This document shows, one piece after another, positions 30,638 through 33,600 of a stretch of 64,000 nt of DNA. Positions within the stretch are counted from its first letter, which is position 1, and every line of letters starts with the position of its first letter. Where the stretch lies: assembly GCF_964204645.1 (NCBI RefSeq), contig NC_134025.1, positions 8,246,001 through 8,310,000 of the forward strand, read 5' to 3'. The translations under genes were made by a program, and so were the position numbers. Source of the DNA: Tubulanus polymorphus. Lineage: Eukaryota > Animalia > Nemertea. Under the pieces are notes generated by a model. The model made no database searches, was not told the origin of the DNA, and saw nothing but the letters and a program-made list of their open reading frames with translations.

Positions 30638-33600
30638 GTAAGTATTTTGCATTTATTTTTCCAAGGAGTGGATCAATATGATTGCTACTCCAGTCAGTAT
30701 TTTGGTGGTAAAAATGCTTAGATACCAGTAGTCTTTCTTTAGCCTTCTGTTTCACATATGTTTAAGTTCAGCATAGGGTAAAAAATCATAGTTTTTTAAA
30801 AAACTTTTCTAGACAGTGTTCTTAAGTGCATATTCTGTAGCTGACACAGCAGAATTATCTTAAAATCACAGAGGATATTTCAAATTATATTTGATTAATA
30901 GAAGCCAAAGATTTGAGAATATGCCTATGTCAAGTTATATAAAACTTGATATAGGCCTATGGTAATTACTCTTAAAGCTGTCTTGAACTACCTCCGCTAA
31001 ATATAACTTGCCACAAAGATCGTGGTCTATGAATCAGTGCTAACGCAGTGGTTGAAAGCTCCTTCTGTCTGCCTGAAAATAGTACATCGTAGCAGAGTTT
31101 TGATAATTTAGATCATTCTTTTGAAAGGAATTATTTATGTAGTTATAATATAACTATATAAAATGCTGTTATTCTTCTATGAATCTCTTTGATGAAGCTA
31201 TGAAAATAAATAAATATCATCTTTGTAGACCTTTGTTTGTACATGAAGGCAGTCATTTTTGCCCTATAGTTAAAATATGCATTTTTGAAATGGACATCGT
31301 AGCTTCTGGATTCTTAAAAAAAAAGAAATGTTTACTGAAAATATGATACATATGTTGGTAAATGTAATAGTATGTGCGTCATTGGTCCCTATGATTTTGT
31401 TTTTGTTGTTCAGTATTATTGCGCAGTTCAGAACTTACGGTAGGCCTATGAACAACAGATAGTTGCCAAGAGTTACTTAGAGCAGCAGACATCGCTGATA
31501 AATCTAACGTGCATCTTAGTCTGATTATTCACAACATGCTGTGGAACGTTCCGATGAGGAATTTTGTAAATCACTCAGACGAATCTACTGACTTTTCAAC
31601 AGTTTGGTTGATTTGATGACGCACACCTAGTGGAATTTTTGATTATTGATCAATGGTGGTTTTCACCGGTCTAAGATGAAGTTCTCTAAAAAAAAAAATG
31701 CTCTGAATCGTTACGAATTATTTGTCCAGCTTAGAAAAGCGAAAATGAAATTCCTCAGTACCAGATGATATTTAGGGTAATTTGAAGGATCTCTATCTGT
31801 GGAGGTTATTAAGTTGCTTATGAAACAACCAGCTGAACATAGGTCGTCTTTGTATTTTCAGCACCATGCTGTTGTAAACATAACTCCCTGAACTTGATCT
31901 TCCTGTAACTTTCTAGACTTCATAAGAAAAAGTGGGCTTGTTTCAACCAATCTGAAATTTAATATAATTCTGAGGTGGATGATCAGCAGAGTATATTTAT
32001 TCATTCAAATGATAAATACTTTTCTTGAAAAACCTTGTGCTAAATTTGAAAATAATTTCTTAAGATAAGTATAAGAAAATATATATTGGTAGCACTAGAA
32101 TTTTTCTTACTTAAAGCATGAATCACCCAATGAATTGAATATTGATGCTTCTGATACTCTATGTAGTTAATGCTGTCTATCACACCTCTCCAGTTTATAC
32201 CAGTTTCCTTCTCCCACTCAGTGTAGCTATTTTCAGCTCAGCTGATGGTAAATGCTTGCCTTTTTTGGCACATAGGTATGCCTCGCAGTGGCGGAACAGT
32301 CCAATCTCGTTATATGAATTGTAGAATATAAACTTTAGAATATTATATCCAATGCCATTTAAATGATTGAAATCTTTTTTATGTTGATGGAATATAAGTC
32401 ATTTAACCTATCAAAGCTTAATTCCGGAATTTTAAGTGAAAGTGATCGAAACATTTAAACATAAAAAAGTTTGAAGATCAGTTTTAATCAATTCATAAGA
32501 ACTTATCATACATAGAATTATATTCAATATATATAATAATCAGGAAGTTTTGGTTAAATTAGTTATATTTCGTTGGTACTGGTTTGAGGGTTGATGCTAC
32601 CACCCCTTACGTAGTGAGGCCATGGCATTAGCTTACCTGAAGAATAAGCCAACACGGCAGCATGCTCAGAGTGTTTAGAGCCGTCAGCTAAAACCCAGCT
32701 GCATGCATGCCTATTCTAACACCAAGATCCTCTGTTAAACTTTTCGATTTTTGAAAACGGTTTTATGTAGTAAAGGATAATATATGAGACGGATAACAGT
32801 ACAATGGCAGAAAAACCTGCGGATATATCCACCCCGGATTTATCCGAAGTGGCGGAGTCACATCCGTCCAGTACAACAACAATTAGCACAGTAGCTGTCC
32901 AAGCCGGACGTGCTAAAATTGTGCTTGCCATACTCAAAGTAAGTTCTGGGTATTTTTGAATTTGTCGGAAAATTATGTTCAGATACGTAGTTTGCTTTTT
33001 CAGATTTCTTATTAAACTGATAAGGTTAAGGTGTATAATCGAGTTGGAATGTACTTGACACTTGTTTCATTAAATCCCTACATAAAAGTCGTTCTATTAG
33101 GAAGAGTAGTTCTCTTATGATTTGCTATAATTTTGTTACTGTTGTATAGAATAATGGTAATCAATTTAGGGCCTACAGGATAATATCTTTAGCATGCAGT
33201 TTAAATAATCCAAAATATTGTCTTTTTTAGAGTCATGACTGGATTAGGATACGCATCCAAACGATGGAGCCAGACCTCATGGAGGTCGGTTCCTCCCTGG
33301 ATGAAGCACTTCAGCTCCGCAAGGAACTCGACGAAATCTGTATGAAACTTTCGGTAAGTGAATAATGTATCATTAGTCAATTGGAAGAAATTTTTACCAA
33401 AGTTCTTAATTCGGTTCTTATGTTTAAAAGGCGGTTATATTTGTGGAAAAAACACAAGATGGATTCAAAATATGAATGCATGTTACTGGATTTATCATCT
33501 AGATTATAAGAAATTCATATGATAGGGCTTTATCCCGGTATCAAGGTTGATTTCTTCTAAAACCTGATAAAAGGTTAATCATTATCGTGATGACTGGTAA

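What the first reader, a model, noticed from the sequence alone, without database searches (positions are those of the whole stretch)
30638..33230. Internal first exon matching the vertebrate CCDC141 N-terminus: a ready-made gene-fission point
Seen: inside an unusually long intron (2.6 kb against about 80 nt typical), an ATG exon at 32804-32938 ends in a phase-0 donor and competes with the SESTD1 donor for the same acceptor at 33231. Its peptide [23 protein letters not shown] is nearly identical to the start of human CCDC141. Inference: the vertebrate CCDC141 promoter and exon 1 pre-existed as an internal promoter, so fission needed only loss of the upstream splice. Strong conservation of this short peptide suggests an uncharacterised binding motif.
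Basis: partly seen in the sequence, partly recalled or inferred. Interest (0 to 1): 0.75.

Follow-up and report, generated by a model that had tools for sequence, protein, structure and literature searches.

The report
Conserved CCDC141 start exon inside intron
Inside the long intron that joins the SESTD1-like and CCDC141-like halves of a ribbon-worm gene lies an unannotated ATG exon encoding the highly conserved start of CCDC141 proteins; it is likely used as an alternative first exon, and the wider evolutionary story was largely published in 2025.

Summary
The window matches Tubulanus polymorphus RefSeq protein XP_074642495.1 exactly. That model splices 30637 to 33231 across a 2593-nt intron, the longest of 34 (median about 110 nt). 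Inside it, 32804-32938 is an ATG-started, 45-codon, phase-0 exon with a GTAAGT donor, absent from the RefSeq model.

Its last 23 residues match residues 12-34 of vertebrate CCDC141: 16/23 for primates, 19/23 for a fish, 22/23 for an invertebrate mRNA-like contig.

None of 11 fused SESTD1-CCDC141 models contains it. Two intronless contigs from a relative begin translation in this exon, behind leaders full of stop codons. Amphioxus has all three forms: SESTD1-only, fused and exon-1-started.

So an ancient alternative first coding exon is well supported by comparison. No RNA data exist for this species, so its start site is not shown.

The single-ancestral-gene idea ("connectitin") and the link to internal promoters were published in 2025 (PMC12198301). 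The exon-level anatomy appears new.

The "binding motif" idea is untested. AlphaFold2 predicts, at modest confidence, a three-stranded beta-sheet in the short form where the fused form has spectrin helix A.

The parts
24046..30637 (+). SESTD1-like part. CRAL-TRIO-region exons lie at about 24046-24189, 25271-25420 and 26807-26920. SESTD1-type spectrin-repeat exons follow up to 29693, and the linker exon 30248-30637 is the last.
   Evidence: tblastn with fused or SESTD1-like proteins of Octopus, Owenia, Anneissia and Babylonia is colinear. Pfam Spectrin_SESTD1 matches exon 28579-28821 at E = 8e-17 and P0010 at E = 3e-41. The CRAL-TRIO exons are shown by tblastn only; Pfam on single exons gave nothing.
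30248..30637 (+). Last SESTD1-side exon (130 codons). It ends in phase 0 with ...[12 protein letters not shown], predicted to be the first half of spectrin helix A in the fused product.
   Evidence: Exact match to P0010 residues 336-465. The homologous Octopus junction lies inside an AF2 helix (849-872) and inside a Pfam Spectrin match (857-957 = profile 8-105).
30638..30721 (+). Read-through of the donor: 27 further codons (VSILHLFF...GGKNA) and a TAG stop at 30719-30721. This is the likely end of a SESTD1-only product.
   Evidence: ORF 30158-30721. By analogy, 13 of 25 stand-alone SESTD1-like entries end with a short tail that starts with valine right after the homologous junction. Inferred for this species.
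30638..33230 (+). Intron of the fused (RefSeq) form, 2593 nt.
   Evidence: No Rfam match at gathering score and no conserved ORF other than the ATG exon.
31205..31214 (+). The only AATAAA signals (two, overlapping) between the donor and the ATG exon. Possible poly(A) signal for a SESTD1-only mRNA.
   Evidence: Weak: about two to three are expected by chance in AT-rich DNA of this length (my estimate).
32575..32803 (+). G+C-richer stretch just upstream of the ATG. Candidate core promoter or 5' leader.
   Evidence: GC is 0.50 at 32575-32724, against 0.22-0.31 in the flanking intron. The role is inferred; no transcript data.
32771..32773 (+). In-frame TAA, 10 codons upstream of the ATG.
32804..32938 (+). 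Unannotated ATG exon (45 codons, phase 0, donor GTAAGT). It is the counterpart of CCDC141 exon 1 and a likely alternative first coding exon.
   Evidence: DNA similarity to the mRNA-like contigs L001 and L002 ends exactly at 32938.
32939..33230 (+). Predicted intron of the short form, 292 nt.
   Evidence: Sequence. The junction ...AILK|SHDW is seen in P0007 and L001.
33231..33353 (+). Shared exon (41 codons, [20 protein letters not shown]...), joined to either 5' exon.
   Evidence: The same shared start is seen in the amphioxus pair P0262 and P0089.
33231..44138 (+). CCDC141-like body: spectrin repeats, DUF7799, Spectrin_7, then I-set Ig domains, as in the RefSeq model.

Best explanation
The 135-base ATG exon at 32804-32938 is the ribbon-worm counterpart of CCDC141 exon 1. 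It is likely an alternative first coding exon, transcribed from a promoter inside the 2.6-kb intron and spliced to the same acceptor (33231) that the SESTD1-side donor (30637) uses in the RefSeq model.

On this reading the locus would give three products:
1. A SESTD1-only protein that ends by reading through the donor at 30638, adding 27 codons before the TAG at 30719 (inferred by analogy).
2. A fused SESTD1-CCDC141 protein (annotated model; transcript support not seen here).
3. A CCDC141-type protein that starts at 32804 (inferred from relatives).

In the fused product the junction is predicted to run through helix A of a spectrin repeat. In the short product the conserved peptide is predicted, at modest confidence, to form two beta-strands that pair with the first residues of the shared exon.

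The vertebrate two-gene state would then be this same locus without the fused splice.
For: Shown directly:
- Exon, frame, donors and acceptor.
- Exact RefSeq mapping with the 30637^33231 junction and without the ATG exon.
- In-frame TAA 10 codons upstream of the ATG.

Homology:
- The core is 16-19/23 identical to vertebrate CCDC141 residues 12-34 and 21-22/23 to Lymnaea and to P0007.
- It is the most conserved 23-residue window of a 28-sequence alignment.

First-exon behaviour:
- 106 of 109 motif-bearing proteins have the motif within 60 residues of the N-terminus.
- These include hemichordate, amphioxus, insect, tick, mite, flatworm, rotifer and mollusc entries.
- The three exceptions are P0094 and P0238, which are Macrostomum models fused to a collagen-type gene with the normal Met just upstream, and P0105.

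Mutual exclusion: none of 11 fused models contains the motif. They come from Tubulanus, Owenia, Babylonia, Haliotis, Octopus bimaculoides, Lingula, Anneissia, three Branchiostoma annotation sets and one unnamed JGI contig. All join the SESTD1 side directly to the shared exon.

Transcript-like evidence in relatives:
- L001 and L002 carry a frame open for 1510 codons in L001, apart from one TAG.
- Their 334- and 392-nt leaders have stops in all frames, with an in-frame stop 7 and 13 codons before the ATG.
- No SESTD1 coding sequence lies upstream, and the exon is joined directly to SHDWIRVRIQQ.

Exon boundary:
- DNA similarity to L001 and L002 stops at 32938.
- Three genomic gene calls read K|V through the same donor.

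SESTD1-only ending: 13 of 25 stand-alone entries end with a V-initial tail after the homologous junction. Two of these sit on cDNA-sized Logan contigs.

Structure:
- Octopus fused model: helix 849-872 runs across junction 861|862, pLDDT about 75-80.
- Pfam Spectrin covers 857-957 of the same protein.
- Lymnaea short form: strands at 19-28, 31-40 and 43-52, block pLDDT 54-72.
Against: - No RNA evidence for this species. No RNA holder was listed, and the three runs laid behave as DNA: they cover introns and show no joints.
- RefSeq gives this gene a single product, with no isoform label, and it lacks the exon.
- Most comparative entries are gene predictions, not sequenced cDNAs, and predictors favour an ATG start.
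- The RefSeq fused model starts oddly inside an exon at 27917, although homologous exons continue upstream. Its quality is therefore uncertain.
- Many species have separate SESTD1-like and CCDC141-like models.
- The beta-sheet prediction rests on a shallow alignment and modest pLDDT.
- Vertebrate SESTD1 was not retrieved, so its C-terminus could not be compared.
Confidence: 0.72

Rival explanations
1. There are two separate genes in this animal. The SESTD1-like gene would end at the TAG at 30719 after running through the donor. A CCDC141/titin-like gene would start at the ATG exon. The fused RefSeq model would then be a read-through or prediction artefact, and the '2.6-kb intron' would really be intergenic DNA.
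For: - Separate SESTD1-like and CCDC141-like entries exist in many invertebrates. Examples are Liolophura RefSeq on one scaffold, Saccoglossus, and B. lanceolatum CAH1249859.1 and CAH1249860.1 with consecutive accessions.
- The Tubulanus fused model is truncated at its 5' side.
- The published view is three genes in bilaterians (PMC12198301, conclusion passage).
Against: - The donor position and phase are kept from nemertean to amphioxus, and the junction cuts through a spectrin helix that is whole only in the fused product.
- Fused junctions are modelled in 11 entries from 9 named taxa or annotation sets plus one unnamed contig. The unnamed one is a 477-aa ORF on a 2103-nt JGI contig, whose upstream part matches the last SESTD1-type repeat at E = 2e-9.
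Confidence: 0.17
2. The exon is a conserved relic that is no longer used in Tubulanus. Only the fused form would be made here.
For: RefSeq annotates only the fused form.
Against: - The ATG, the 45-codon frame and the consensus GTAAGT donor are all intact.
- The core is 22/23 identical to an expressed relative, and DNA identity is only 73-78%. This points to selection on the protein.
Confidence: 0.07
3. The exon is an internal cassette, included between the SESTD1 donor and the 33231 acceptor.
For: An AG at 32787-32788 would give an in-frame exon start at 32789 (read).
Against: - That AG has no pyrimidine tract.
- A TAA lies in frame at 32771-32773.
- The better-looking AG at 32798-32799 gives a 139-nt exon, which is out of frame.
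- None of 11 fused proteins includes the motif.
- L001 and L002 have in-frame stops just upstream of the ATG.
Confidence: 0.03

Closest known systems
Vertebrate CCDC141 (CAMDI), N-terminus / first coding exon
   Same: The same 23-residue core sits at residues 12-34, followed by the same type of shared segment and by spectrin repeats and Ig domains.
   Different: In vertebrates CCDC141 is annotated as a gene of its own. Here the exon lies inside an intron of a model that begins in SESTD1-like sequence. The vertebrate exon-intron boundary was not examined.
'Connectitin' hypothesis: a single ancestral SESTD1-CCDC141-titin gene (Hanashima et al. 2025, PMC12198301)
   Same: The order and strand match: SESTD1-like, CCDC141-like, then Ig-rich titin-like sequence. 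[quoted passage not shown]
   Different: The passages read describe connected genes in cnidarians and placozoans, and three genes in bilaterians (human and fly). They do not describe the shared acceptor, the conserved exon 1 inside the junction intron, the donor read-through ending, or connected models in spiralians, a crinoid and amphioxus. The paper's supplementary files were not opened.
KALRN/TRIO complex loci with internal promoters (Delta-kalirin type isoforms)
   Same: They work the same way: a Sec14-spectrin gene in which an internal start gives a product lacking Sec14 and the first repeats (paper statement; isoform details recalled).
   Different: They are paralogous, not orthologous. 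No motif match was found in the Trio/kalirin-like proteins.
Drosophila sls locus (zormin, kettin, D-titin) with CG15822 upstream
   Same: Zormin is the fly counterpart of CCDC141 and is joined to titin-type Ig domains (paper passages). Insect, tick and mite proteins begin with the same motif.
   Different: The fly SESTD1 counterpart is reported as a separate gene. The fly sequences themselves were not examined here.

Membership tests
CCDC141 / zormin-type protein | N-terminal core of the form [ST]TT[IV]S[ST][VI]A[VI]Q[AS]G followed by a hydrophobic stretch ending in K or R | tested here: met
   16-22/23 identity to vertebrate, hemichordate, mollusc and flatworm entries. The motif definition is my own, drawn from these alignments.
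CCDC141 / zormin-type protein | The core lies within the first 60 or so residues of the protein | tested here: met
   True for 106 of 109 motif-bearing proteins. From the ATG at 32804 the core would be residues 23-45.
CCDC141 / zormin-type protein | Followed by spectrin repeats (Spectrin, DUF7799, Spectrin_7) and C-terminal Ig domain(s) | tested here: met
   Pfam on P0010, which maps exactly to 33231-44138.
CCDC141 / zormin-type protein | Same exon 1 / exon 2 boundary | tested here: met
   Similarity to L001 and L002 ends at 32938. The amphioxus isoform pair shares its sequence from the homologous residue onward. The vertebrate gene structure was not examined.
Connectitin-type connected locus (PMC12198301) | SEC14/CRAL-TRIO domain and SESTD1-type spectrin repeats upstream on the same strand | tested here: met
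   Colinear tblastn and Pfam Spectrin_SESTD1. CRAL-TRIO rests on tblastn to residues 39-186 of an Octopus 'CRAL-TRIO domain-containing protein'; Pfam on single exons gave no hit.
Connectitin-type connected locus (PMC12198301) | SESTD1 and CCDC141 parts present in one mRNA | tested here: inconclusive
   The RefSeq model joins them. No RNA reads were available.
Connectitin-type connected locus (PMC12198301) | Continuation into titin-type Ig/PEVK sequence in one reading frame | tested here: inconclusive
   A 90-nt intron (44138-44227) would keep the frame into proline-rich repeats and Ig exons. The RefSeq model stops at 44139-44141 instead.
Connectitin-type connected locus (PMC12198301) | RhoGEF/PH/SH3 and kinase domains further downstream, as in cnidarian connectitin | not tested
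   They would lie beyond the window end. The genome was not fetched.
Alternative first exon driven by an internal promoter | Transcription start site upstream of the exon, inside the intron | not testable with these tools
   No RNA holder was listed. The laid runs are DNA-like contigs.
Alternative first exon driven by an internal promoter | Mutually exclusive with the upstream coding exons, and sharing one acceptor with them | tested here: met
   Shown by comparison only: none of 11 fused proteins has the motif, and 106 of 109 motif proteins start with it. The amphioxus pair P0262 and P0089 shows the shared acceptor.
Alternative first exon driven by an internal promoter | mRNAs whose leader lacks the upstream coding exons | tested here: met
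   Met in relatives only: L001 and L002.

The most novel reading that the evidence does not exclude
Across Bilateria, SESTD1 and CCDC141 (and perhaps titin-like sequence) are still one transcription unit with three outputs. The two-gene states of vertebrates and flies would then be independent losses of a single splice.

The ultra-conserved exon-1 peptide is a fold-switching module. Joined to the shared exon, it turns what is helix A of a spectrin repeat in the fused isoform into the third strand of a small beta-sheet. This leaves an open, two-helix half-repeat that could dock a partner, possibly the orphaned half-helix at the C-terminus of SESTD1-only protein.
Probability: 0.15. Interest if true: 0.65.

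Novelty: new member of a known kind. Interest (0 to 1): 0.4.

Why it matters
It gives exon-level anatomy to a published idea, that SESTD1, CCDC141 and titin descend from one gene. At the SESTD1/CCDC141 boundary, one conserved phase-0 donor can be spliced or read through to a stop. A conserved ATG exon in the following intron supplies the CCDC141 start. If that holds, splitting the gene would have needed no new promoter, start codon or stop codon.

It also flags an exon missing from the RefSeq annotation of this species. And it identifies the most conserved stretch of CCDC141, a protein tied to heart and neuronal phenotypes in the papers seen, as an isoform-specific N-terminal element whose role nobody has tested.

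Tried and rejected
**RNA evidence.** No RNA holder was listed for 30100-35100. Runs X1-X3 were laid on 29000-36000. X1 spans the whole stretch and may be the assembly's source. X2 and X3 cover intronic pieces and show no joints, so they behave as DNA. The second read-laying run was not used, because no RNA run was on offer.

**Other content of the intron.**
- Rfam at E <= 1 gave only sub-threshold miRNA-like hits on a hairpin at 34116-34217, outside the intron in question.
- Stop-to-stop ORFs of 50 aa or more showed nothing conserved apart from the ATG exon.

**Pfam.** The exon peptide hit 0 families at E <= 1. The single CRAL-TRIO exons gave no relevant hit.

**Leader conservation.** blastn of the L001 and L002 leaders against 30638-33230 found only the coding core.

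**Structure searches.**
- Foldseek of the short-form model against PDB returned only spectrin, actinin and plakin repeats, and says nothing on the N-terminal sheet.
- PDB by sequence returned only spectrins.

**Self-association of the N-terminal 160 residues.** There is no result.

**Vertebrate SESTD1.** It was not among the 29 hits nor among session proteins. The comparison of its C-terminus with the 30637 donor could not be made.

**Hyalella model P0144.** It has the shared-exon homologue at residue 928, but its upstream 927 residues matched no SESTD1-like protein. It was left out of the fused count.

**Earlier findings of the scan.** Nothing turned up by place or by sequence.

**Literature.** Four searches were run:
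- 'sestd1' + 'ccdc141': 17 papers.
- 'connectitin': 2 papers.
- 'ccdc141' + 'alternative promoter': 4 papers, listing only.
- 'zormin' + 'promoter': 18 papers, 8 listed, listing only.

None of the passages read describes this exon or the shared acceptor. The supplements of PMC12198301 were not opened and might hold bilaterian gene structures.
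Full report
**What is in the sequence**

The stretch 32804-32938 reads ATG GCA ... CTC AAA followed by gtaagt. It gives 45 residues, [45 protein letters not shown], and ends in phase 0. The exon upstream ends ...GAA|gtaagt at 30637, also in phase 0. The next acceptor is ttttttag|AGT at 33231, opening [20 protein letters not shown]....

Ten sense codons upstream of the ATG there is an in-frame TAA at 32771-32773. Two AGs lie near enough to act as acceptors. The one at 32787-32788 is in frame but has no pyrimidine tract. 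The one at 32798-32799 would give a 139-nt exon, which is out of frame (read).

**Whose gene it is**

A search with a related protein returned XP_074642495.1, 'uncharacterized protein LOC141899810 [Tubulanus polymorphus]' (P0010, 2149 aa). It maps onto the window letter for letter in 35 exons between 27917 and 44138. So the window is from this nemertean or a near-identical genome.

The model uses 30637^33231 and skips the ATG exon. That intron is 2593 nt, the longest of 34. The next longest are 1304, 932 and 554 nt, and the median is about 110.

Upstream of the model's start, exons colinear with the CRAL-TRIO and spectrin parts of SESTD1-like proteins run back to about 24046. The RefSeq model is therefore probably truncated at its 5' side. 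Pfam finds Spectrin_SESTD1 in the first part of P0010, and Spectrin, DUF7799, Spectrin_7 and five I-set Ig domains in the rest.

**Is the peptide the CCDC141 start?**

Yes. All 65 vertebrate CCDC141 entries returned align to the exon's last 23 residues at their own residues 12-34, or slightly later in three entries with longer N-termini.

| Compared with | Identity |
|---|---|
| Primates | 16/23 |
| Alligator | 17/23 |
| A cyprinid fish | 19/23 |
| Saccoglossus | 16/23 |
| Amphioxus | 13/23 |
| Tick, beetle, wasp | 12-14/23 |
| Flatworm | 19/23 |
| Lymnaea | 21/23 |
| Unnamed JGI protein P0007 | 22/23 |

The first 500 residues as a whole are only 30-37% identical between P0007 and the vertebrates. 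In a 28-sequence alignment this core is the best-conserved 23-residue window of 684 columns. 'Nearly identical to human' is too strong, but 'strongly conserved' is right. No Pfam family covers the peptide.

**First exon, cassette or relic?**

A motif screen was run on the 276 proteins held at that point. Of these, 109 have the motif, and 106 have it within the first 60 residues. The exceptions are two Macrostomum models fused to a collagen-type gene, in which the normal Met sits just before the motif, and one nematode model.

Eleven proteins join SESTD1-like sequence directly to the homologue of the shared exon, and none of them contains the motif. They are:
- Tubulanus P0010
- Owenia P0011
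- Babylonia P0012
- Haliotis P0013
- Octopus bimaculoides P0020
- Lingula P0269
- Anneissia P0090
- Branchiostoma P0262, P0280 and P0282
- unnamed JGI protein P0230

. A Hyalella model was left out because its upstream part is not recognisably SESTD1-like.

Amphioxus shows all three forms at one junction:
- SESTD1 CAH1249859.1 ends ...LHREMKQ|VSFQDTRR*.
- The next accession, CAH1249860.1, starts METSVNG...STTISTIVVQSGKGKIVVAVLR|SLQDIQLRIA.
- Three RefSeq models read ...LHREMKQ|SLQDIQLRIA.

**Transcript-like evidence from relatives**

Two JGI metagenome-collection contigs, L001 and L002, encode P0007-like proteins. The frame is uninterrupted over about 4.5 kb, apart from one TAG in L001 where P0007 has K. 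The Tubulanus gene has more than 25 introns over the same span, so these contigs are spliced RNA copies.

Their ATGs sit at 335 and 393. The leaders have stops in all three frames, an in-frame stop 7 and 13 codons upstream of the ATG, and no SESTD1-like coding sequence. The exon is joined directly to AGT CAT GAC TGG (SHDW). DNA similarity between these contigs and the Tubulanus intron is confined to the coding core and stops exactly at 32938.

Three genomic gene calls from other organisms (P0004, P0005, P0008) read ...LAILK|V... through the same donor.

**How the SESTD1 side ends**

Thirteen of 25 stand-alone SESTD1-like entries end with a short tail beginning with valine (a GTN codon) right after the position homologous to 30637. 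I placed that position by eye on the conserved ...L..L.(E/Q) pattern. Two of them (P0256, P0257) sit on cDNA-sized Logan contigs.

In the window, the same read-through gives 27 codons and a TAG at 30719-30721. The only AATAAA signals before the ATG exon are at 31205 and 31209, which is weak evidence.

**Structure**

In the Octopus fused protein, Pfam Spectrin covers residues 857-957 (profile positions 8-105) across the junction at 861|862. AlphaFold2 draws one helix, 849-872, across the junction at pLDDT about 75-80.

In the Lymnaea short form, AlphaFold2 draws three strands. Strands 19-28 and 31-40 come from the alternative exon, and strand 43-52 comes from the start of the shared exon. Block pLDDT is 54-72, and the helices begin at residue 62.

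So the shared segment is predicted to be helical in one isoform and a strand in the other. This is a prediction from shallow alignments (28 and 25 sequences) and should be treated as a lead.

**What could not be shown**

No RNA run was listed for this species. The three runs laid cover introns and show no joints. The start site, the use of 32938^33231 and the real abundance of 30637^33231 in Tubulanus remain inferred. Upstream of the ATG, GC rises to 0.50 at 32575-32724. That fits a promoter or leader but proves nothing.

**Comparison with what is known**

Hanashima et al. 2025 (PMC12198301; abstract, section 13 and passages read) named the hypothetical single ancestor 'connectitin'. They found connected genes in cnidarians and placozoans and described three genes in bilaterians. 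[quoted passage not shown]

A second paper from the same group reports that CCDC141's N-terminal spectrin repeats bind nesprin-1 and that CCDC141 shares a transcriptional unit with Ttn (PMC12657953, passages).

What I did not find in the passages read or in four searches:
- the conserved exon 1 lying in the junction intron;
- the shared acceptor;
- the donor read-through ending;
- connected models in spiralians, a crinoid and amphioxus.

The paper's supplements were not opened.

**Verdict**

The exon is a genuine, strongly constrained coding exon that the RefSeq annotation misses. The 'internal first exon' reading is well supported by comparison but unproven in this species. The evolutionary framing is mostly already published, and the 'binding motif' remains an open idea.

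Noticed in passing
window 44130-44834: The RefSeq model ends by reading through a donor: GG|GTAAGA at 44137|44138, with TAA at 44139-44141. Splicing 44137 to 44228 (a 90-nt intron) would keep the frame into proline-rich [14 protein letters not shown] repeats (44228-44834) and on into Ig exons to the window end. This would be a second junction of the same 'splice or stop' kind, between the CCDC141-like and titin-like parts.
   Followed up: partly
window 40996-41409: An open I-set-like Ig exon ([39 protein letters not shown]...) lies inside the 932-nt intron of the RefSeq model and is skipped by it. P0007 has a homologous Ig domain at the same place. It is a likely cassette exon or an annotation gap.
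   Followed up: no
window 24046-27917: The RefSeq protein starts at an ATG inside an exon (27917), although exons colinear with the CRAL-TRIO and first spectrin repeats of SESTD1-like proteins run upstream to about 24046. The model looks 5'-truncated, or there may be yet another internal start.
   Followed up: partly
window 25819-26865 and 37255-37568: Long microsatellite arrays lie in introns of the gene. They translate as YIHT, YVCM and YI runs in all frames.
   Followed up: no
window 33354-34657: This is the second-longest intron (1304 nt), right after the shared exon. Gastropod entries P0018 and P0019 start with a different first exon joined at the next exon, so this intron might hold a third start. 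It also holds a hairpin at 34116-34217 with sub-threshold miRNA-like Rfam hits on both strands.
   Followed up: no
window 209-2270 and 11483-15302: Upstream neighbours on the + strand are a glycoside hydrolase family 65-like gene (Pfam Glyco_hydro_65m, E = 9e-17) and a kinase-like gene ([11 protein letters not shown]) with one 987-codon open exon that has no Pfam match.
   Followed up: partly
L001 842-844: The contig has TAG where the database protein P0007 has K (AAG expected), plus two other residue differences in 1510 codons. This is an allelic variant or an assembly error, not a sign of a different genetic code.
   Followed up: partly
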